The notes under the pieces were generated by a model. It saw only the letters and a list, made by a program, of their open reading frames with translations. It had not been told where the DNA came from and made no database searches. From a virus: a DNA stretch of 64,000 nucleotides. Location of the stretch: the IMG/VR virus record IMGVR_UViG_3300024261_001362, positions 1 through 64,000 of that record. One strand, 5' to 3'. A program made the position numbers and the translations under genes. Position 1 is the first letter of the stretch. The number at the start of each line of letters is the position of its first letter. Positions 32,430 to 46,118 of the stretch are shown here, in pieces.

Positions 32430-32872
32430 GTCAACACCTCTAATAATTCTATAGCATCAATTTGCTCAAATTGGTGTACGGGTTTCTTACCAGTGATTCT
32501 GTAAAATTCCTTTGCATCCTCTTCGTCTTCAGTAATAACATCAATAGTATTTGCTACTTCTAAAACTTTGAGTATATCTTTATCATCCCACCTATTGTAG
32601 ATATGGAAGAGTTTAAATTTGTTCACAATTTTGTTGGCACTAAATGCATTATTCAGTGATGTTGTGAATAATGTTCCCGTAAAGTTCCACATATCCGCAG
32701 CGTTAAACATTCCAAAAGATGGAATCGTAGGATTGTAATCAATATCATTATAAAACAGACTAGCATCCTTTATTTTTCTACGTCGAATACTGCTATTTAG
32801 AGTCTTGAAAATATCTATATTGCGATTTGCCGTATTTACTTTGTCTATATAAAAACCAATGTTCTTAAGCAT
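32426..32872 (-). CDS. Hypothetical protein (148 aa), possibly a degenerate GT-B half-domain
   Basis: Likely start MLKNIGFY at 32872 with RBS GGAGA, overlapping the fcl stop; alpha/beta pattern. Confidence 0.5.
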   Translation of the reverse strand: MLKNIGFYIDKVNTANRNIDIFKTLNSSIRRRKIKDASLFYNDIDYNPTIPSFGMFNAADMWNFTGTLFTTSLNNAFSANKIVNKFKLFHIYNRWDDKDILKVLEVANTIDVITEDEEDAKEFYRITGKKPVHQFEQIDAIELLEVLT

Positions 32873-33791
32873 GTTTATTCTCCATATACCATTTAATGGT
32901 TCTCTGTAGACCTTCTCTGAGGTCAATTTCAGCCTCAAATCCCAATCGTTCTTTTGCTCTTGATACATCTAAGCATCGACGAGGCTGACCGTCTGGTTTT
33001 GAGGAATCGTATAGTACTTCGCCATCATAGCCCATAATGTCTACAATCTCAGCGACCAAATCTTTAATTTTGATTTCTTTACCAGTGCCAATATTGATAG
33101 GCTCTGGAGAAACATTATTTGTAATAGCAGCAACAATTGCTCTGCCACAGTCACCAACAAATAAGAATTCACGAGAAGCTTCACCAGTTCCCCATAAAGT
33201 AATTGATGGATCACCATTTTCTATTGCTTGATGAACTTTCAAGATAAGTGCGGGAATTACGTGACTACTTGTTAGGTTAAAATGATCATGAGGCCCATAC
33301 ATATTTACTGGAATTAAATTGACACCATTAAAATCGTATTGCTCATGATATGCTTCCACCAGTCTCATAAGGGTCTTTTTAGCAATACCATATGGAGCAT
33401 TGGTTTCTTCTGGATAACCATTCCATAAATCTTCTTCCTTAAAAGGCACAGGTGTGAATTTGGGATATGCACAAACTGTTCCAAGTAAAATAAACTTAGG
33501 GACTTTTGCTTTCATCGCTGAGTGAATAATATTAGTTCCCATAATCAGATTTTCATACATAAACTTTCCGGGATTTTCCTGGTTTGCACCAATACCTCCC
33601 ACGCTTCCCGCAGTATGTATAATAACATCTGGAGCACTTCTACTGATAACATCATCAGTGCATCTAGCTTTACATAAATTATAAGGTTTACTACCTATTG
33701 ATCTGACTTGGCTACTGCCAAATGTTTCTTGTAAAATTTTGGTAAGGTTTGTGCCCAAAAACCCAGTACCACCTGTTAGTAATATTCTCAT
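32865..33791 (-). CDS. fcl: GDP-L-fucose synthase (extended SDR epimerase/reductase)
   Basis: ILLTGGTGFLG, AGSVGGIGAN, LGTVCAYPK, YGIAK, PVNMYGPHD, SHVIPALI, WGTGEASREFLFV, KPDGQPRR. Confidence 0.92.
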   Translation of the reverse strand: MRILLTGGTGFLGTNLTKILQETFGSSQVRSIGSKPYNLCKARCTDDVISRSAPDVIIHTAGSVGGIGANQENPGKFMYENLIMGTNIIHSAMKAKVPKFILLGTVCAYPKFTPVPFKEEDLWNGYPEETNAPYGIAKKTLMRLVEAYHEQYDFNGVNLIPVNMYGPHDHFNLTSSHVIPALILKVHQAIENGDPSITLWGTGEASREFLFVGDCGRAIVAAITNNVSPEPINIGTGKEIKIKDLVAEIVDIMGYDGEVLYDSSKPDGQPRRCLDVSRAKERLGFEAEIDLREGLQRTIKWYMENKHA

Positions 33792-35315: not shown

Positions 35316-36059
35316 TTAAAATTTAATTATACTCCCGTCTCCCCAGCCCGGAAGAAAATGATCGTGTCTAACAAAATACCAATTATTTTCAAGTATAAAT
35401 TTAAATTCTTTATTAAGCTTGTTAAGGTGGTAAAACGACATTCTGTGATCACAGTGGTCGATTCCCTCATTAAAAATATCCATGAAATTTAGATAGAGGT
35501 CTAAGTAGTGTTTGATGTGAGTAGGAGTTGAAGCTATAATCCCTGTAGTTACATGGTCTTTATGCATACGTGAGTCTGGGCTATAGCCATCGTATATAGC
35601 GTCATCATCTATTTGTTCTACAAACTTAGCGGTAGGTGCTACATCTGTTCTAGTCCAAACAGCTAAATCATATTCATCCATAAATTCTGACATCATCTCT
35701 CCAGATTTCCACCTAGAGTATAACATTGATTGAAATATATCGGAGGAAGCTGTTGCTTTAAGTGGTTTGCCGTTGTTGTTATCTAATATTTCTATTTTGG
35801 GAAACTCTTTTTGTTTTTCAAATAAATATTTTCTTGGTTTATAAAGGTCTAATATTTTCTTGTCAGTATCTGGCTGTACAACATCTGATGTTCGCGGGTT
35901 TCTATCAGAATATATTTTTAATTCTTCTCCAATATTTGATTCGTCAAACCACAGGTGGAAGAAATAATCTACTTCATGATTTGATAAGCTTTCAGATAAG
36001 TATTTGTGCCCAATATTAAAATGTCTTGGTTGACCACTTAAACATACTGCTATCTTCAT
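35316..36059 (-). CDS. Putative glycosyltransferase (KIAVCLSGQPR family)
   Basis: MKIAVCLSGQPR, DYFFHLW, SMLYS, YDLAVWTRTD; ATGA overlap with the upstream gene. Confidence 0.55.
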   Translation of the reverse strand: MKIAVCLSGQPRHFNIGHKYLSESLSNHEVDYFFHLWFDESNIGEELKIYSDRNPRTSDVVQPDTDKKILDLYKPRKYLFEKQKEFPKIEILDNNNGKPLKATASSDIFQSMLYSRWKSGEMMSEFMDEYDLAVWTRTDVAPTAKFVEQIDDDAIYDGYSPDSRMHKDHVTTGIIASTPTHIKHYLDLYLNFMDIFNEGIDHCDHRMSFYHLNKLNKEFKFILENNWYFVRHDHFLPGWGDGSIIKF

Positions 36060-36910
36060 GATAAATTCTCCCAAAAAAAGTGTAAGATATCATGTATTTT
36101 ATCTTTGTGATCTAAATATGGTACTGGGCAGTGAATATCCACATAGTTACTTTTTGTGTTTTTATCAAACTGACATCCTGTAGACCTGCATATTTTTTTA
36201 GAGGGATTACGTTTAAACGGTCTTTCAAATCCGGTAAATTTATCTAAGTAATTTTTATGTATTAGGGATGTCGTATAAATCTCTTCCCATGCCCATATGC
36301 CGTGCTGTCTGATCTCAGTTTCACCCCAGTGTCGTTGATCTTGTAGTTCTGCATAAGAAGCTCCAATTTTTTTACGGTGCGATCTCCACTGATCCAGTAA
36401 TGCTACAATGTGTGTTTCTAATGATAGATTCAGTTCTAACGCTTTTGTGAATGTAGATCCTTTTGCGACGTGGTAGTGTGCATTTAGATAAGACCTGTCT
36501 GGAGCAGGCCCGTCTTTTTTCCATATTCCTATTGGAACCCCAGTCGATTCCTCCGTAGCGTCTTCTGCCAAGTGTACATAGTGGTCGTCTGGAACATTAG
36601 AAATGTTATCAATAAAGTGTTCTCTTTGTAAAGGTATTTGATCTATATCTCCTATCATCCAAGTTGTGTCTGGTTCATTGCTGGTATAATGGAATTTATT
36701 AAATGCAAATTGAACTGTGGTTGGATATCCTTCTATATAATCAATCTCTATAATTTTCCCATACTCTTCACTTAAATCGCAGTTCTCTTTTTTGCCGTAT
36801 AGTAGCAGGACACAATCCATATCTAAAAACTTATTATGTATTTTAGAATTGATGTTCCAAAAATCGCTATATTGCTCTGTAGCACACCATATCACTTTAT
36901 CAATTTTCAT
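36056..36910 (-). CDS. Putative GT-A glycosyltransferase
   Basis: DxD motif in WMIGDIDQIPL, WEE, DIHCP; island context. Confidence 0.55.
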   Translation of the reverse strand: MKIDKVIWCATEQYSDFWNINSKIHNKFLDMDCVLLLYGKKENCDLSEEYGKIIEIDYIEGYPTTVQFAFNKFHYTSNEPDTTWMIGDIDQIPLQREHFIDNISNVPDDHYVHLAEDATEESTGVPIGIWKKDGPAPDRSYLNAHYHVAKGSTFTKALELNLSLETHIVALLDQWRSHRKKIGASYAELQDQRHWGETEIRQHGIWAWEEIYTTSLIHKNYLDKFTGFERPFKRNPSKKICRSTGCQFDKNTKSNYVDIHCPVPYLDHKDKIHDILHFFWENLS

Positions 36911-41365: not shown

Positions 41366-42280
41366 CTACAGTATTCCTTCTATAAATTTTAGTACATTGT
41401 TTGGTTTAACAAAGTCTGGCATTTCTCCATTTGTGAATAGCGGTTGATTAAACATTTCTTGATACAATTCTTCATCTTTATCTATTTTGATTATATCCTC
41501 TATCAAATCTTCCATATCTTCATAATCGTTTAAATTAAGAAAACACTTTGTATTGAAATCATAATCACATTTTTCATCAGACCAGTAGATTGGTATAGTT
41601 CCAGCAGTTTTAGCATGGAGCAATTTTTCCGTATAATATCCCTTGGTTGGAGATAAAGAGTTTTCAACACAAATAGAGAATTTATATTTAGATAGCGTCT
41701 CATATTTTTTACTTTCACCATAATTCCAATTCCCGAAAGATTTCCCGTATCCATGAACCTGTTTGTATTTACTTAGTGTGTTCATCATTTCCAGCCTCAT
41801 TGGGATAGGGTTACTGAAAACAAAGGCACAAAATTCAGTTTTCGGAGTGTTTATATATGTATTATCTGATACTTGATTTATAGGTATCAAATACTCTGGA
41901 TTTCCATATGTTTTACTATCAAACCAGTCTATATACATACCCCACAGTGGGAACCTGTAATTTCTTTCGTCCTCTGAGAAATCAAAAGAGATAGCAAAAT
42001 CTGATTTTACGACTGCATTCCCTCTTTGTATAACGTAGTCTGGTCCGTCAAAGTTTGGCCTACAATTTTCTCCAGTATAAAAAATCTTTTTGCACTTGTG
42101 GTGTTTATAATTTAATGCAGACAGATCACCCCCATATCCGACTGTAAAGAACAGAAGATCGGGATCAGCTTGATCTATTTGAACTTCATACTTTGTCCTA
42201 AGCAAATTTGTAAAATAGTTATTTTCTCTATCAAATCCATCTCCCCAAAAATCTACAAATCCTATTTTTATTTTTTCCAT
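41366..42280 (-). CDS. GT10 alpha-1,3-fucosyltransferase-like protein
   Basis: KIFYTGENCRPNF, YKFSICVENS..GYYTEKL..A..AGTIPIYW (alpha-1,3-FucT motif). Confidence 0.88.
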   Translation of the reverse strand: MEKIKIGFVDFWGDGFDRENNYFTNLLRTKYEVQIDQADPDLLFFTVGYGGDLSALNYKHHKCKKIFYTGENCRPNFDGPDYVIQRGNAVVKSDFAISFDFSEDERNYRFPLWGMYIDWFDSKTYGNPEYLIPINQVSDNTYINTPKTEFCAFVFSNPIPMRLEMMNTLSKYKQVHGYGKSFGNWNYGESKKYETLSKYKFSICVENSLSPTKGYYTEKLLHAKTAGTIPIYWSDEKCDYDFNTKCFLNLNDYEDMEDLIEDIIKIDKDEELYQEMFNQPLFTNGEMPDFVKPNNVLKFIEGIL

Positions 42281-42284
42281 GCTA

Positions 42285-42935
42285 TTATGCTCCCACTGGA
42301 AACTCTAACCCAGTATATAACTTAAATTGATACGATGCTTGTAAATTAGCTAGCTGCTTACCAGTTTCTGTAGACACTAAACAGTCAATAAATTGCACAG
42401 AGTTATGTAGTTTATTTTTGATACCTTCCACTGGGGTACAATTAAAAACAACACAGTCCGTAAGTTGCTGTATTTCACCCCAGTTTTTTCTAGTAATATT
42501 AATATAAGTTATACCAAGTGTTTCTGCCGCTGCCTTAACCGCTAGTGCGTATCCTCCATTCCCTAGTATGTAAAAATTACTATTAGTAAAACATTTTAGA
42601 TAATCTATTGCAGCCAAGAAGTCTGTATTGTATGCTTTTAACTTATTGTTTTTGTTTATTACAGTGTTTGCTGCCCCTATCTTTGCTGAATCGTCAATTT
42701 CGTCCACATACTTTAGTACTTGTTGTTTGAATGGCATTGTTACCGCAAAACCCTTTATTCCAAGCGTCTTTACAGATTTTATAGCATCCTCTATGTTGTC
42801 TACAGAAAATGATTTATACACCTTATTCAATCCATAATAATAAAACGCAGTGTTAATCATTTGACAACCAGTGTTGCCAGAAGTCTGTGCAAACGAACAA
42901 TATAAATCAGTGTCTTTATTTATCCACGAGTTCAT
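42285..42935 (-). CDS. Shikimate dehydrogenase-like protein, SdhL subclass (short, 216 aa)
   Basis: INKDT.L..S start, VTMPFK, GAANTV, AYNTD, GNGGYA, NCTP, LQA..QFKLYTG. Confidence 0.8.
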   Translation of the reverse strand: MNSWINKDTDLYCSFAQTSGNTGCQMINTAFYYYGLNKVYKSFSVDNIEDAIKSVKTLGIKGFAVTMPFKQQVLKYVDEIDDSAKIGAANTVINKNNKLKAYNTDFLAAIDYLKCFTNSNFYILGNGGYALAVKAAAETLGITYINITRKNWGEIQQLTDCVVFNCTPVEGIKNKLHNSVQFIDCLVSTETGKQLANLQASYQFKLYTGLEFPVGA

Positions 42936-43872
42936 GTAAGATCCTCAATTTGTTTTTTATCACCCTGTTAATTTTATCATCTATGTTGGGTTTAATGAGT
43001 AGAAATTTATCATCAGAAAATACATAGTGTCCACATATCTTTATTAGTTCTTTTTTGTTATTTTCAGGGATAAAGTGTTTATTAACCCATTTTTTCCATC
43101 TACCTGAACGATAACAAATTTGATAATATTCTTCTATGTCGTTACCCATTTCATCTAAATAACACAGTGTTTCGAGTTGACCAAATTCAGGAGCTATATT
43201 TATAGCATCCAGACCTAAATCAAACCTAGCTTTATATTCACTATTCAATAAGTAGTCCCCATTATGTTCTTTACTTTTCTTCCCGAAGCTTTTACAAGTG
43301 GTGATCATTTGCTCCATGATGGTGGGACTGAAAGTTCCAGTATTAATCCTCTGTCCTAAGTTTAATCCAACTCCAGACTGTATAGATACATACTCTATAG
43401 CTTCAAATATTTCTGGTGATAGTCTTGATTCTAAATCTGACAAAAATGTATGCAGCGATGCCGGGTCAAATTCCTTTATGGCCGCTTCTGTGCCGACCTC
43501 GAACTTAATATTTCTATTGGTATAATAACAAAACTCTAAGTTGCTTATGCACGCCTTTAGTCCCTCGCGGTATTTGGGGTACTTTTTCCAAGGATCTATG
43601 TGAATTATCTCTACATTTTTGCAGTCTGTTTTTAAGGACTCGTATCCGTCATCATCTATATAACCCTGACCTGCTCCTGCATGGTCTCTTTCAATAATAA
43701 TTTGTCCATTCACATATTTGGTGAATGTTTTAGTGGTCCAATTATTAACATATCCACCATCGTAATCAATTTGTCTCCTAGAAGGAATAAAGCCAAAAAT
43801 ATTACCAATATCTATAACAGCATCAACTATATTACGAGACATTGGGCCTATAAAATATTTAATATTATTCAT
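42916..43872 (-). CDS. GatZ/KbaZ-like TIM-barrel (tagatose-6-P epimerase/aldolase-subunit family)
   Basis: SRRQIDYDGGY, ERDHAG, IHIDP, FEVGTE, KEHNGDY, INIAPEF. Confidence 0.65.
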   Translation of the reverse strand: MNNIKYFIGPMSRNIVDAVIDIGNIFGFIPSRRQIDYDGGYVNNWTTKTFTKYVNGQIIIERDHAGAGQGYIDDDGYESLKTDCKNVEIIHIDPWKKYPKYREGLKACISNLEFCYYTNRNIKFEVGTEAAIKEFDPASLHTFLSDLESRLSPEIFEAIEYVSIQSGVGLNLGQRINTGTFSPTIMEQMITTCKSFGKKSKEHNGDYLLNSEYKARFDLGLDAINIAPEFGQLETLCYLDEMGNDIEEYYQICYRSGRWKKWVNKHFIPENNKKELIKICGHYVFSDDKFLLIKPNIDDKINRVIKNKLRILHELVDK

Positions 43873-45772
43873 AATGCTTTTGTAACATTTGGGTTGACTT
43901 TAAAAACAATAAGTCTCCAAATTCCTTTTCGTGTAAAGGTGCCATATTTAAAAAAATGAGAGAAGTGATGGTTTTTATTTTTTCTAAGTCATATTTATTA
44001 TTTACAATCCATTGTTCATAAATTAGTTTAAATTCATCCAATTTAGGCTCATGTTTGTAATCATAAGTTGCCATCTCTTTGTCAATGTAGCAAGAAAAAT
44101 TATTATTATCCTTCATTAACTTATAAGACATTAAGATACCACCATATAGTTTTGCTAAGTCATAATATACATCCCCGATAGATTGTTCTGCAAAATCTTG
44201 CCTCCAGTCTAATAAGCAGAATATACCGTGATCTTGATCAGTACAAATTACATTGTCAAATTGCAAATCTCCATGAAACATTTCTGTAGCCAGTCCGTCA
44301 CTAATTAGATCCCAATCAAAATCATCCAATAATTTCACCACGCTTTTATTTTTTACACCGTTAATAATGTGGTCACCTGAATATGACCCTTCCCTATTGG
44401 ACAAGAACAATTGTAGTCTATTTAGTGTTTTGTCTTTATAGAATTTCAGACATTCCTCTTTAATCTCCTTATCAAATCGTTGCCACATATTGGTTTCTAT
44501 GAAAGTAAGAAACTTTTTCCAAATATCGACATCGTTACAATCATATAGGGTGCTACCTTCCAGCCACTCGTATGCATACAAGTGATTACCGCTATAAATT
44601 ATTTCTGGAACCAGCTTACCAAGTTTCTTGGCTCTGTCAACCCGACCGCTGATGAATTTACCGTCTGAAGACAGTTTAATAAAATTATCGTTAACCTTGT
44701 ACAGAAATTCCCCATTGGTTTTAGGGATACTGTACTGTACAGTGTCATCGAATATCTTTTGGGCATGTAGGTAACTTTCTATAGTCCCAATATCATACCA
44801 GTCAAACTTATATCCTTTAAATGTTGGATATTTATCACTGTTATAATAAGCACTTACAATTTCTGAACCGCTCAGTTGCTCCCAGAAGATTTTATAATCA
44901 TTAACCCCAGCTAATCCAATGAATGCGTAATCATACCCATCTTTGGATTTATTTACAAATGCAACTATGTCATCGTCTTCGATATTCGCAGTAGAGTATC
45001 GTTCTGACATACTGGTAGGATATAGTCCAAGCCAATTGGAGTCTATAGAAGTAGGTAGATCGTCTGTAATAATTACATCCGCCGTTGCCCAAATAAACGG
45101 TCTTTGTAGGTATTGTTCAGCTTGCTTGATTGAATAACCAGGACCAGTTCCTTCGCCTTCATATTTATCAACTGTAACAAAAGTAAAATTTTTATCTGGA
45201 TGGGCTGCATGACAATACTCTCTAACCATTTCACCCTTGTATCCCAGCACCATAATAATATCGTACTCTTCTGGAACCTTATTAATGAGATGAGAGATAA
45301 TCGCCTGATTGTCGAGCGGTAGCAGTCCCTTGTTTATATGTCGCGACAGATTTGCTAGCCTACTACCTACTCCCGCAGCCAGTATGCACAGTGCTGGTTT
45401 CATATGCTCGTGCTCTATTCTGCCATCCTGACGATTAGTATCATCTGAAATTCTTATTACATCGTCTACTTCAGGAGTAGAAACTTCCTGTAAAATAATA
45501 TCAGTTATCGCTATTACCCTATGTTTTCTTGGTGGAAGGACAGTAAAAAAGTCCCCCGCCTTCATAGTTTTCTTTTCTACGACTCCTTGATCATTTTCTA
45601 GCCAAACTTCAGCCACGCCCTCAATTATATAATTTGTTTCCAGCTTTTCATGATGATATTGATAGCTTGTTTTTTGCCCAGCGTTAATATAGATTCGTTT
45701 ATAACAATATTTATCGTTCAATTCAAGCCAAGTTTCTTTTCCCCAAGGTTTATATATTGTTTTATAACTCAA
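43865..45772 (-). CDS. Trifunctional cupin + nucleotidyltransferase + APH/choline-kinase-like protein
   Basis: KPWG..SYQYHHEKLET..H..EVSTPEVDDVIR (PMI type II-like cupin); ILAAGVGSRL..NKGLLP..WYDIG (NTase); FHGDLQFDN..LDWR..GDVYYDLAK (kinase). Confidence 0.8.
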   Translation of the reverse strand: MSYKTIYKPWGKETWLELNDKYCYKRIYINAGQKTSYQYHHEKLETNYIIEGVAEVWLENDQGVVEKKTMKAGDFFTVLPPRKHRVIAITDIILQEVSTPEVDDVIRISDDTNRQDGRIEHEHMKPALCILAAGVGSRLANLSRHINKGLLPLDNQAIISHLINKVPEEYDIIMVLGYKGEMVREYCHAAHPDKNFTFVTVDKYEGEGTGPGYSIKQAEQYLQRPFIWATADVIITDDLPTSIDSNWLGLYPTSMSERYSTANIEDDDIVAFVNKSKDGYDYAFIGLAGVNDYKIFWEQLSGSEIVSAYYNSDKYPTFKGYKFDWYDIGTIESYLHAQKIFDDTVQYSIPKTNGEFLYKVNDNFIKLSSDGKFISGRVDRAKKLGKLVPEIIYSGNHLYAYEWLEGSTLYDCNDVDIWKKFLTFIETNMWQRFDKEIKEECLKFYKDKTLNRLQLFLSNREGSYSGDHIINGVKNKSVVKLLDDFDWDLISDGLATEMFHGDLQFDNVICTDQDHGIFCLLDWRQDFAEQSIGDVYYDLAKLYGGILMSYKLMKDNNNFSCYIDKEMATYDYKHEPKLDEFKLIYEQWIVNNKYDLEKIKTITSLIFLNMAPLHEKEFGDLLFLKSTQMLQKHYE

Positions 45773-46118
45773 TTTCTGCGATCCCTTCGTTTCTGTGAAT
45801 ATTTATTGAATATGCAGTATCTATACCACTATCAGGCTTTCTGTCGTTTATCAATATTCTATTCCCACCACCAATTCCCATAATCAACTGATCATAAAAT
45901 ATATTATTTTCTTGTAACTGCATTTCTGTCTGTTGCCTACAAGATTCTCTCCTCCCAGTTATAAGAATTATGTTATAACCCTTTTTATCCCATTTATGTA
46001 ATTTTTCTCGTACACCTTCTAATACCACTGGCTTTTCACTCATTTGTGCATGAAGATCTCCGTGGTGGTACAAAAGGGTTCCATCTATATCACATATAAT
46101 TGTTTTTGGTTTATTCAT
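45762..46118 (-). CDS. Small cap-less HAD phosphatase
   Basis: IICDIDGTL, LITGR, LINDRKP. Confidence 0.85.
   Translation of the reverse strand: MNKPKTIICDIDGTLLYHHGDLHAQMSEKPVVLEGVREKLHKWDKKGYNIILITGRRESCRQQTEMQLQENNIFYDQLIMGIGGGNRILINDRKPDSGIDTAYSINIHRNEGIAEIEL

What the first reader, a model, noticed from the sequence alone, without database searches (positions are those of the whole stretch)
42285..46118. Four-gene cassette for an unknown nucleotide-activated sugar: HAD, cupin/NTase/kinase, GatZ-like epimerase, SdhL dehydrogenase
Seen: four overlapping genes directly upstream of the GT10 gene. Known: the NDP-heptose route uses isomerase, kinase, HAD phosphatase and nucleotidyltransferase; some GatZ-family proteins are ketose-phosphate C4-epimerases. 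Inference: the same logic is rebuilt here from different folds (ketose-P epimerase, cupin isomerase, APH-type kinase, HAD, NTase) with an extra NAD(P)H step, yielding a rare aldose, alditol or cyclitol donor. I know no characterised pathway with this enzyme set.
Basis: partly seen in the sequence, partly recalled or inferred. Interest (0 to 1): 0.75.

Follow-up and report, generated by a model that had tools for sequence, protein, structure and literature searches.

The report
Viral cassette activating an unknown sugar
Four coupled genes in an uncultured aquatic phage are one copy of a widespread but biochemically untested enzyme set that most likely turns a common sugar phosphate into a nucleotide-activated rare sugar for the phage's large glycan-building gene island.

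Summary
Four translationally coupled minus-strand genes encode a 118-aa HAD phosphatase, a PMI-type cupin/nucleotidyltransferase/APH-fold kinase fusion, a 318-aa remote GatZ homologue and a shortened SdhL-like dehydrogenase. A GT10 gene follows 4 nt downstream.

Of 76 IMG/VR loci (phages and giant viruses) holding the GatZ-like gene, 72 hold the kinase, 71 the NTase, 68 the cupin and 66 the HAD. Gene fusions link all five. The dehydrogenase is an accessory: it occurs in 26 loci, always with one cupin subtype.

The kinase and NTase are homologous to RB69 gp52:53, the counterpart of AfhE in the phage UDP-arabinose route. That supports the order isomerase, 1-kinase, phosphatase, nucleotidyltransferase.

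Most likely route: a ketose phosphate is C4-epimerised, isomerised to an aldose phosphate, phosphorylated at C1, stripped of its terminal phosphate and nucleotidylated. The sugar, the nucleotide and the dehydrogenase step are unknown.

This scan has already noted the same cassette in at least 42 other genomes. I found no paper in the held library describing it. I class it as a new variant of a known kind.

The parts
45762..46118 (-). Minimal capless HAD phosphatase (118 aa); proposed to remove the terminal phosphate of a sugar 1,n-bisphosphate
   Evidence: PF25109 1.3e-9. The family profile hits the Pnkp1 phosphatase domain at 2e-12, GmhB at 0.004 and 1xpj at 0.005. HAD motif residues D10, D12, T14, G55/R56, N91/D92 and K94 are invariant in 28 homologues. 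It is present in 66 of 76 loci. In 5 loci it is replaced at the same position by an RB69-gp51-like HAD.
45419..45772 (-). PMI-type (type II mannose-6-P isomerase C-terminal) cupin domain, residues 1-118 of the fusion; proposed ketose-P to aldose-P isomerase
   Evidence: PF01050 is over its cut-off. Q38, H40, E45 and H84 are invariant or nearly so across three cupin subtypes and E. coli CpsB. The start codon is TTG with an upstream AAGGGA.
44738..45418 (-). Sugar-phosphate nucleotidyltransferase domain, residues about 119-345
   Evidence: PF00483 and PF12804. G16, G18, R20, K30 and D114 are invariant. The profile hits RfbA at 7e-13, LicC at 8e-12 and HddC at 3e-9. hhalign to RB69 gp53 gives 94% probability, E 8.5e-8, over the full length.
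43865..44737 (-). APH/choline-kinase-fold small-molecule kinase domain, residues about 346-635; proposed anomeric (C1) kinase of a sugar phosphate
   Evidence: AlphaFold2 pLDDT 92. VIA-align Z 15-16.7 to APH(4)-Ia, LicA, fructosamine-3-kinase and choline kinases. K22, H156-G157-D158, N163 and D178 are invariant. hhalign to RB69 gp52 (AfhE kinase counterpart) gives 96% probability, E 1.6e-9; no solved structure scored better than E 0.13 by sequence profile.
42916..43872 (-). Short (318 aa) remote GatZ/KbaZ homologue with a class II aldolase-type TIM barrel; proposed metal-dependent ketose-phosphate C4-epimerase
   Evidence: GatZ D87/H88/E171/H257 (PMC11907403) align with D63/H64/E129/H203. The H-x-x-D-Y motif is shared with GatZ in place of the aldolase H-G-x-S-G loop. 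GatZ K279 aligns with N225. Match to GatY is only 42% probability.
42285..42935 (-). Shortened SdhL-class shikimate-dehydrogenase-family NAD(P)-dependent oxidoreductase (216 aa); accessory redox step of unknown substrate
   Evidence: PF08501 2e-17. HI0607 4e-28 and 5-ketofructose reductase 7cok 1e-12. K70, N90, D105, G125/G127/G128, R149 and Q203 are invariant. Two deletions (16 and 23 aa) relative to the full-length Omnitrophota homologue. Present in 26 of 76 loci.
41366..42280 (-). GT10-family glycosyltransferase immediately downstream; candidate user of the product
   Evidence: PF00852 8e-20 and PF18025 9e-19. Homologues of this window GT10 lie in 10 loci and a second GT10-like family in 21 loci. 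Its use of the cassette product is inferred only.
35316..36074 (-). Member of an unknown about 250-aa family ('c5') that in other loci sits directly next to the HAD gene; candidate dedicated transferase
   Evidence: Family c5 is in 24 loci and family c4 in 25, with one locus holding both; they usually follow the HAD gene. No Pfam or PDB relative was found.

Best explanation
The four genes encode six catalytic domains that form a self-contained, mutase-independent route from a central ketose phosphate to a nucleotide-activated rare sugar. That sugar is then used by the surrounding glycosyltransferase island.

Proposed order:
1. The GatZ-like TIM barrel, a metal-dependent retro-aldol/aldol enzyme, epimerises C4 of a ketose phosphate. 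The simplest case is fructose-6-P to tagatose-6-P.
2. The PMI-type cupin isomerises the ketose phosphate to an aldose phosphate. With PMI stereochemistry this would be D-talose-6-P; galactose-6-P is the alternative.
3. The APH-fold kinase phosphorylates the anomeric carbon, giving a 1,n-bisphosphate.
4. The mini-HAD removes the terminal phosphate.
5. The NTase domain makes the NDP-sugar.

The shortened SdhL-like enzyme adds an NAD(P)H-dependent step found only in this cassette subtype.

Shown here: the domain identities, intact catalytic residues, co-occurrence, fusions, and homology of the kinase and NTase to the AfhE counterpart. Inferred: the order of the steps, the substrate, the nucleotide, the stereochemistry and the role of the dehydrogenase.
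For: - Co-occurrence: kinase, NTase, cupin and HAD accompany the GatZ-like gene in 72, 71, 68 and 66 of 76 viral loci, and in four cellular MAGs.
- Fusions link every pair of domains: cupin-NTase-kinase (window), HAD-cupin of about 250 aa, TIM-NTase-kinase of about 855 aa, and TIM plus cupin plus NTase plus kinase in the 1390-aa protein P0159.
- Back end homologous to a tested pathway. The kinase profile matches RB69 gp52 at 96% probability, E 1.6e-9, and the NTase matches gp53 at 94%, E 8.5e-8. PMC13326640 reports that AfhE, their counterpart, is an Ara5P 1-kinase and UDP-Ara pyrophosphorylase, and that AfhF is the HAD acting on Ara-1,5-bisP.
- The only five loci that lack the window-type HAD carry, at the same position, a HAD that matches RB69 gp51 by BLAST at 1e-12 to 1e-17.
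- The TIM protein keeps GatZ's proposed catalytic Asp and metal ligands and its H-x-x-D-Y motif (PMC11907403).
- The cupin keeps Q38, H40, E45 and H84, which correspond to the Gln/His/Glu/His zinc ligands of PMI as I recall them.
- None of the 76 loci holds a phosphomannomutase, a GatY-type aldolase or a SIS isomerase.
- Many loci carry SDR epimerase/dehydratases, DegT aminotransferases and methyltransferases, which typically tailor NDP-sugars.
Against: - No enzyme of this cassette has been assayed.
- The TIM protein differs from GatZ: it is about 100 aa shorter, has N225 where GatZ has K279, and carries extra basic residues R32, R33, R62 and K201. Its substrate, and whether it is an epimerase or an aldolase, are open.
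- The kinase fold and the NTase score equally well against LicA and LicC, which activate an alcohol phosphate.
- The window HAD itself shows no significant similarity to RB69 gp51.
- The dehydrogenase has no assigned step.
- The nucleotide is unknown.
Confidence: 0.7

Rival explanations
1. The cassette makes an NDP-alditol or other NDP-alcohol phosphodiester donor, by CDP-ribitol, CDP-glucitol, CDP-2-glycerol or LicA/LicC logic. The SDH-like enzyme reduces the ketose phosphate (for example tagatose-6-P) to an alditol phosphate. The kinase and NTase then activate it for transfer as a phospho-alditol.
For: - The kinase model is as close to the choline kinase LicA (Z 16.4) as to any sugar kinase.
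- The NTase profile hits LicC at 8e-12, inositol-1-P cytidylyltransferase at 8e-9 and ribitol-5-P cytidylyltransferase.
- An NAD(P)-dependent reductase is embedded in this copy of the cassette.
Against: - Two thirds of the cassettes lack the reductase.
- The cupin with an intact PMI metal site would have no role, yet it is fused to the NTase-kinase.
- The kinase has specific sequence homology to the AfhE-type sugar-phosphate 1-kinase, but no significant sequence match to any solved kinase, LicA included.
- No LicD, TagF or Stealth family match appeared among the proteins scanned.
Confidence: 0.12
2. The TIM protein is an aldolase rather than an epimerase. It condenses dihydroxyacetone or a ketose fragment with an aldehyde (phosphate) to build an unusual carbon skeleton, such as a heptulose, a deoxy-ketose or a pentulose. 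That skeleton then passes through the same isomerase, kinase, HAD and NTase steps.
For: - The fold and residues belong to the class II aldolase superfamily.
- N225 aligns with the Asn of GatY's KINVATE segment, where GatZ has Lys.
- Epimerisation and aldol cleavage share one mechanism (PMC11907403).
Against: - The protein is closer to GatZ (97% probability) than to GatY (42%).
- It shares GatZ's H-x-x-D-Y motif in place of the aldolase H-G-x-S-G segment. By my recollection that segment binds the DHAP phosphate, which would argue against a 1-phosphorylated substrate.
- The other relatives in this branch, UxaE and tagatose 4-epimerase, are also C4 epimerases.
Confidence: 0.12
3. The NDP-sugar is used to hypermodify phage DNA, as in the Afh arabinosyl-5-hydroxycytosine system, rather than to build a glycan.
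For: The nearest tested homologues, AfhE and RB69 gp52:53, serve DNA glycosylation.
Against: - No thymidylate-synthase-like dCMP hydroxylase was found in the 96.7-kb record, which is only 58% complete.
- The cassette sits in a block of about 25 kb of minus-strand genes that includes GT10, GT25, GT47 and Fcl-like matches and many ORFs without a family match.
- Related loci carry polysaccharide-type tailoring genes.
Confidence: 0.04
4. It is a catabolic auxiliary metabolic gene set for tagatose or galactitol use. The GatZ-like protein acts as an aldolase chaperone, as viromics annotation assumes.
For: JGI names some homologues GatZ/KbaZ. One virome paper reads viral gatZ/kbaZ as enabling tagatose use (PMC13243649).
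Against: - None of the 76 loci holds a GatY or KbaY partner, a PTS component or a tagatose kinase.
- The gene is fused to, or coupled with, an NTase, a kinase, a HAD and a cupin.
- The context is anabolic glycosyltransferases.
Confidence: 0.02

Closest known systems
Phage Afh route to UDP-D-arabinose (arabinose-5-P isomerase, AfhE NTase-kinase, AfhF HAD; RB69 gp55, gp52:53, gp51), as summarised in PMC13326640
   Same: Both have a bifunctional NTase plus kinase protein and a minimal HAD of about 120 aa, and the order isomerase, 1-kinase, terminal phosphatase, NTase. The kinase and NTase domains are homologous (hhalign 96% and 94%). An AfhF-like HAD replaces the window-type HAD in 5 related loci.
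   Different: The isomerase here is a PMI-type cupin, not a SIS-fold enzyme. There is an extra GatZ-like enzyme and, in this subtype, an SDH-like reductase. The window HAD is not detectably related to gp51 beyond superfamily motifs. The context is a glycan island, not DNA modification. The sugar is unknown.
NDP-heptose pathway (GmhA, HldE/HddA, GmhB, HldC/HddC)
   Same: The chemical logic is the same: ketose-P isomerase, anomeric kinase, HAD phosphatase acting on a bisphosphate, then NTase. The NTase profile hits HddC (5xhw, 3e-9) and the HAD profile hits GmhB weakly (0.004).
   Different: The isomerase (cupin versus SIS) and the kinase (APH fold versus PfkB or GHMP) are different folds. The heptose route has no C4-epimerase or dehydrogenase step.
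E. coli GatZ/KbaZ and Agrobacterium-type tagatose-6-P/fructose-6-P C4-epimerases; UxaE and tagatose 4-epimerase
   Same: The TIM-barrel fold is shared, GatZ is the best hit, and the catalytic Asp, the His/Glu/His metal ligands and the H-x-x-D-Y motif are conserved (PMC11907403).
   Different: The protein is 318 aa rather than about 420, lies below Pfam and NCBIfam detection, has Asn where GatZ has Lys279, and carries extra conserved Arg and Lys residues. Its role is anabolic, coupled to sugar activation, not catabolic.
SdhL (H. influenzae HI0607) and 5-ketofructose reductase, within the shikimate dehydrogenase family
   Same: The N-terminal substrate domain, the catalytic Lys/Asp pair, Asn, Gln and the glycine-rich NAD(P) motif are conserved.
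   Different: There are two conserved deletions of 16 and 23 aa. By my own assignment, the second removes the segment that carries AroE's carboxylate-binding Tyr. There is no shikimate-pathway context. The protein scores far below the equivalog cut-offs (135.7 versus 306 bits).
Cyanomyophage heptose-like module (S-CAM1 SXBG_00217 to 00220)
   Same: It holds a PMI-type cupin (34.5% identical) next to a mini-HAD homologous to the window's (hhalign 92%, E 5e-7), alongside a sugar-activating NTase.
   Different: It has a gene annotated as HldE-type and no APH-fold kinase match, and it has no GatZ-like gene. It exists in cultured phages, so it is a tractable relative.

Membership tests
GatZ/KbaZ family (PF08013 / IPR012062) | Match to the curated family model | tested here: not met
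   No Pfam or NCBIfam family at E <= 0.01; the 120 homologues listed carry no precomputed Pfam domain.
GatZ/KbaZ family (PF08013 / IPR012062) | Remote homology and the class II aldolase-type TIM-barrel fold, with GatZ as nearest relative | tested here: met
   The profile hits 2fiq at 1.9e-7. hhalign to E. coli GatZ gives 97% probability, E 5.6e-11. The top Foldseek hits are 3txv and 2fiq at about 2e-11. GatY reaches only 42% probability.
GatZ/KbaZ family (PF08013 / IPR012062) | Catalytic Asp87 and metal ligands His88, Glu171 and His257 (PMC11907403) | tested here: met
   They align with D63 (invariant) and with H64, E129 and H203 (at least 90% conserved).
GatZ/KbaZ family (PF08013 / IPR012062) | Family-specific Lys279 in place of the aldolase residue, and a length of about 420 aa | tested here: not met
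   K279 aligns with the invariant N225, which also aligns with the Asn of GatY's KINVATE segment. The protein is 318 aa.
GatZ/KbaZ family (PF08013 / IPR012062) | Fructose-6-P/tagatose-6-P C4-epimerase activity | not testable with these tools
   Needs an enzyme assay.
Afh-type sugar activation (AfhE/AfhF) | One protein carrying an N-terminal NTase and a C-terminal kinase, both homologous to AfhE counterparts | tested here: met
   The domain order is the same. The kinase matches RB69 gp52 at 96% probability, E 1.6e-9. The NTase matches gp53 at 94%, E 8.5e-8 and by BLASTP at 2e-7. HY126 AfhE itself was not available; RB69 gp52:53 served as its stated counterpart.
Afh-type sugar activation (AfhE/AfhF) | AfhF-type HAD phosphatase | tested here: inconclusive
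   The window HAD against RB69 gp51 gives no BLAST hit and hhalign E 0.14. Both are capless HADs of about 120 aa, and five related loci carry a gp51-like HAD in its place.
Afh-type sugar activation (AfhE/AfhF) | SIS-fold arabinose-5-P isomerase and coupling to 5-hydroxy-dCMP synthesis and DNA arabinosylation | tested here: not met
   No RB69 gp55-like protein in the 76 loci or the window region 30001-56000. No thymidylate-synthase-like gene in the held record.
Type II phosphomannose isomerase cupin (PF01050) | Model match over the cut-off, and the Gln/His/Glu/His metal site | tested here: met
   36.7 bits against a cut-off of 23.6. Q38, H40, E45 and H84 are conserved in all 17 aligned cupins, including E. 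coli CpsB. The ligand assignment rests on my knowledge of PMI, not on a test here.
Shikimate dehydrogenase family, SdhL class | N-terminal substrate domain, catalytic Lys/Asp and glycine-rich NAD(P) motif | tested here: met
   PF08501 2e-17. HI0607 4e-28. K70, D105 and G125/G127/G128 are invariant.
Shikimate dehydrogenase family, SdhL class | Full-length Rossmann domain and equivalog-level score | tested here: not met
   There are two deletions of 16 and 23 aa relative to a full-length homologue. The score is 135.7 bits against a cut-off of 306.
LicA/LicC-type alcohol-phosphate activation | Choline-kinase-like kinase plus LicC-like cytidylyltransferase, with a LicD-type transferase | tested here: inconclusive
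   LicA at Z 16.4 is tied with APH enzymes. LicC scores 8e-12. No LicD, TagF or Stealth family match was seen in the neighbours scanned, but those scans were not exhaustive.

The most novel reading that the evidence does not exclude
The subtype found in this window (fused cupin plus shortened SdhL-like reductase) does not just make a C4-epimeric hexose. It uses the NAD(P)H step to make a class of donor not known from viruses. That donor could be an NDP-alditol, or a sugar inverted at a further centre (an L-series or otherwise very rare aldose). In this reading a GatZ-type enzyme works anabolically, and thousands of marine phages and giant viruses decorate virions or host envelopes with a sugar that is so far undescribed.
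Probability: 0.2. Interest if true: 0.8.

Novelty: new variant of a known kind. Interest (0 to 1): 0.6.

Why it matters
The GatZ-like family has about 4,800 members at 90% clustering and 794 clusters at 50%. The related NTase-kinase clusters are 72-100% viral among members with a taxon record. None of these proteins has a tested function.

Identifying the product would:
- name a new viral nucleotide sugar;
- show a second use of the recently described AfhE-type kinase, phosphatase and NTase route, this time outside DNA modification;
- correct the viromics habit of scoring viral gatZ/kbaZ as a tagatose-catabolism auxiliary gene (PMC13243649);
- give a mutase-independent enzymatic route to rare NDP-sugars for glycoengineering.

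Tried and rejected
- Sequence-only searches of the GatZ-like protein (Pfam, NCBIfam, phmmer against PDB) found nothing. Only profile and fold searches worked.
- The kinase profile had no significant PDB sequence hit. Foldseek and VIA-align gave a tie among APH, choline, fructosamine-3, methylthioribose and malto-kinases, so the fold does not reveal the substrate.
- I tested whether the cassette simply feeds GDP-mannose to GDP-fucose for the GT10 enzyme. The window has an Fcl-like SDR, but the held record has no Gmd. True Gmd is present in only 7 related loci. This gave no consistent support.
- Chaperone for GatY: rejected, because no locus holds GatY.
- DNA hypermodification: no ThyA-like gene was found.
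- Families c4 and c5, the candidate transferases, have no Pfam or PDB relative.
- The genome-contig scan found only 4 cellular loci with its single pattern. 2 of 301 sampled genomes of the phylum of the Saccharibacteria MAG (L079) had a match. The family is sporadic in the cellular genomes searched.
- Literature searches for this enzyme set found no description.

Full report
**What is there**

The window belongs to a 96.7-kb IMG/VR virus record, estimated 58% complete. Its split DnaE polymerase is at most about 32% identical to that of any GenBank phage. From about 32 to 57 kb the minus strand carries a long run of genes that includes GT10, GT25, GT47 and GDP-fucose-synthase-like matches, together with many ORFs that match no family.

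Inside this run lie four genes:
- 45762-46118 (118 aa)
- 43865-45772 (635 aa)
- 42916-43872 (318 aa)
- 42285-42935 (216 aa)

They overlap by 11, 8 and 20 nt. A GT10 gene follows 4 nt later. Promoter-like and terminator-like sites in the region are no more frequent than in shuffled sequence, so the block reads as one operon. The 635-aa gene must start at its TTG to include the conserved KPWG cupin N-terminus. An AAGGGA site lies 9 nt upstream of that TTG.

**Domain identities**

- **HAD.** It matches the PNKP-type HAD model (1.3e-9). All HAD motifs are invariant in 28 homologues. Its profile hits the Pnkp1 phosphatase domain at 2e-12, and GmhB and 1xpj weakly.
- **Cupin.** Residues 1-118 of the fusion match the type II phosphomannose-isomerase cupin over the Pfam cut-off. 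Q38, H40, E45 and H84 are conserved in all three cupin subtypes and in E. coli CpsB. I identify these as the PMI zinc ligands from established knowledge, not from a test here.
- **NTase.** Residues about 119-345 have the G-x-G-x-R...K signature and D114 invariant. They match sugar-1-P and alcohol-P nucleotidyltransferases alike: RfbA 7e-13, LicC 8e-12, HddC 3e-9.
- **Kinase.** Residues about 346-635 fold with pLDDT 92 as an APH/choline-kinase-type kinase, Z 15-16.7. The ATP lysine, the HGD...N loop and the metal-binding Asp are invariant.
- **GatZ-like protein.** The 318-aa protein has no Pfam or NCBIfam match. Its family profile hits E. coli GatZ (2fiq, 1.9e-7). hhalign gives 97% probability, E 5.6e-11. 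An AlphaFold2 model (pLDDT 97) has the two GatZ-type structures as top Foldseek hits, ahead of class II aldolases, UxaE and tagatose 4-epimerase.
- **Dehydrogenase.** The 216-aa protein is an SdhL-class member of the shikimate dehydrogenase family (HI0607 4e-28). The family also contains 5-ketofructose reductase, which shows it can act on keto-sugars.

**Is it a unit?**

A scan of IMG/VR returned 76 loci with the GatZ-like gene, from phage contigs and giant-virus MAGs. Within a few kb of it:

| Partner | Loci of 76 |
|---|---|
| Kinase | 72 |
| NTase | 71 |
| Cupin | 68 |
| HAD | 66 |
| SDH-like gene | 26 |

Gene fusions tie every part to the others:
- cupin-NTase-kinase, as in the window;
- HAD-cupin, about 250 aa;
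- TIM-NTase-kinase, about 855 aa;
- a 1390-aa protein with TIM, cupin, NTase and kinase.

The same set occurs in four cellular MAGs: Saccharibacteria, Legionellales, Gribaldobacteria and Omnitrophota. It is rare there: 2 of 301 sampled genomes of the Saccharibacteria MAG's phylum had a match.

So the conserved unit is five domains, and the SDH is an accessory. It occurs only with one cupin subtype, at least 71% identical to the window's against at most 40% for the others, and in the viral loci that cupin is always fused to the NTase-kinase.

**A natural swap**

Loci L009 and L016 are 75-94% identical across 18 of the 20 L009 genes, including TIM (82%), HAD (75%) and all the glycosyltransferases. 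The segment [cupin-NTase-kinase plus SDH] of L009 is replaced in L016 by [free cupin, NTase-kinase at 31% identity, TylF-like methyltransferase]. This shows two things. The SDH travels with its cupin-NTase-kinase gene. TIM and HAD are generic parts that serve both module types.

**How it probably works**

Earlier notes of this scan pointed to the phage Afh pathway, and I checked that lead. PMC13326640 reports the following:
- AfhE of phage HY126 is a bifunctional D-arabinose-5-P kinase and UDP-arabinose pyrophosphorylase.
- AfhF is a Mg-dependent HAD that converts Ara-1,5-bisphosphate to Ara-1-P.
- RB69 gp52:53 and gp51 are their counterparts.

Tests here gave these results:
- The cassette's kinase profile matches RB69 gp52 (96% probability, E 1.6e-9, 227 columns). 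This is better than any solved structure by sequence.
- The NTase profile matches gp53 over its full length (94%, E 8.5e-8).
- Several cassette NTase-kinases hit gp52 directly by BLASTP, down to 2e-11.
- The window HAD is not significantly similar to gp51.
- Exactly the five loci that lack the window-type HAD carry, at the same position, a 115-123-aa HAD that matches gp51 at 1e-12 to 1e-17. I read this as displacement between functionally equivalent enzymes.

The back end is thus best read as anomeric kinase, then terminal phosphatase, then NTase. No phosphomutase, GatY-type aldolase or SIS isomerase occurs in any locus.

The front end is the new part. The TIM protein keeps GatZ's proposed catalytic Asp and its His/Glu/His metal site (D63, H64, E129, H203; PMC11907403). 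It also keeps GatZ's H-x-x-D-Y motif where GatY has H-G-A-S-G. By my recollection that aldolase segment binds the DHAP phosphate, so the motif favours a ketose with a free C1 hydroxyl, as in the F6P/T6P epimerase reaction.

It also differs from GatZ:
- it is 100 aa shorter;
- it has the invariant N225 where GatZ has K279, a position that aligns with the Asn of GatY's KINVATE segment;
- it carries conserved R32, R33, R62 and K201.

Cultured cyanomyophages such as S-CAM1 place the same cupin and a homologous mini-HAD (92%, E 5e-7) next to a gene annotated as HldE-type, and no GatZ-like match was found in them. That fits the cupin as the ketose-P/aldose-P isomerase and the mini-HAD as a GmhB analogue.

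The simplest full route is:
1. F6P to tagatose-6-P (TIM);
2. to D-talose-6-P or galactose-6-P (cupin);
3. to the 1,6-bisphosphate (kinase);
4. to the 1-phosphate (HAD);
5. to the NDP-sugar (NTase).

Sedoheptulose-7-P or xylulose-5-P as entry points are not excluded. I give about 0.7 to the general scheme and about 0.3 to the hexose version.

**The dehydrogenase**

The catalytic K70 and D105, together with N90, Q203 and the glycine-rich motif, are invariant. The viral proteins carry two conserved deletions (16 and 23 aa) relative to the full-length Omnitrophota homologue found in the same kind of cassette. By my own alignment-based assignment, the second deletion removes the segment that holds the carboxylate-binding Tyr of AroE. 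The substrate is therefore very unlikely to be shikimate. Which intermediate the enzyme reduces or oxidises cannot be told from sequence.

**Rivals**

1. NDP-alditol or LicA/LicC-type activation (0.12).
2. TIM as an aldolase that builds a new carbon skeleton (0.12).
3. A DNA-modification donor (0.04). No ThyA-like gene was found, and the context is a glycan island.
4. Catabolic tagatose gene or GatY chaperone (0.02).

**Known or new**

I found no paper in the held library that describes this enzyme set. One virome study reads viral gatZ/kbaZ as a tagatose-utilisation gene, which the context here contradicts. The scan itself has noted the cassette in at least 42 other genomes.

It is a new variant of a known kind: the heptose/Afh activation logic with an undescribed front end. 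The window's copy belongs to the SDH-bearing subtype.

**Limits**

- No enzyme of the cassette has been tested.
- HY126 AfhE itself was not available, so RB69 proteins stood in for it.
- Residue roles in TIM, cupin and SDH rest on alignments, not on structures with ligands.

Noticed in passing
L009:5484-7995 versus L016:5573-8008: Two closely related phage loci have flanks, TIM, HAD and all glycosyltransferases 75-94% identical. They differ by a clean swap: [cupin-NTase-kinase plus SDH] in one, [free cupin, NTase-kinase at 31% identity, TylF-like methyltransferase] in the other. This is a natural experiment on what the SDH module does.
   Followed up: partly
window 35316-36074 (-); for example L005:9300-10061 and L009:9315-10424: Two unknown protein families, c5 (about 250 aa, 24 loci) and c4 (about 370 aa, 25 loci), usually sit right after the HAD gene. 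They are nearly mutually exclusive, with one locus holding both. Neither has a Pfam or PDB relative. They are candidate dedicated transferases for the cassette product.
   Followed up: partly
L006:8950-9321, L047:9062-9409, L053:9092-9445: In the five loci that lack the window-type HAD, an RB69-gp51 (AfhF)-like mini-HAD occupies the same slot after the GatZ-like gene.
   Followed up: yes
L084:5709-6095 (RB69p051) and L078:5685-6008 (S-CAM1 SXBG_00218): Both small proteins are annotated 'phosphoheptose isomerase' in RefSeq, but neither reading holds. RB69 gp51 is described as a HAD-like phosphatase in PMC13326640. The S-CAM1 protein matches the window's HAD family (hhalign 92%).
   Followed up: partly
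window 32865-33791 (-): A GDP-L-fucose-synthase-like SDR (NF047922, 3.7e-88, below its cut-off) lies in the same island as the GT10 gene. No GDP-mannose 4,6-dehydratase is present in the held 96.7-kb record.
   Followed up: partly
P0125, P0135, P0160; L062:8001-10100: The GatZ-like domain is also found fused to a class I/II aminotransferase (P0125). It is fused to a Methyltransf_23 domain in about 700-aa proteins. A free methyltransferase of about 380 aa often sits between the TIM and HAD genes.
   Followed up: no
L021:4978-6120 and L006 (families c39, c40): A split transketolase/E1-like pair (E1_dh plus Transket_pyr) lies directly upstream of the cupin gene in L021. Members of the same two families lie upstream of the cupin in L006, with one ORF in between.
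   Followed up: no
L082:5154-9330 (Omnitrophota MAG): A cellular copy of the SDH-bearing subtype has all domains as separate genes and a full-length SDH. Its cupin is 64% identical to the window's. This suggests that the viral mini-SDH is a trimmed derivative.
   Followed up: partly
H27-H30 (records named Listeria phage LM 4-11-1 and LM 4-14-1): The only other GenBank 'phage' hits to the GatZ-like protein are at 25% identity, on unannotated Listeria contigs. They were not examined.
   Followed up: no
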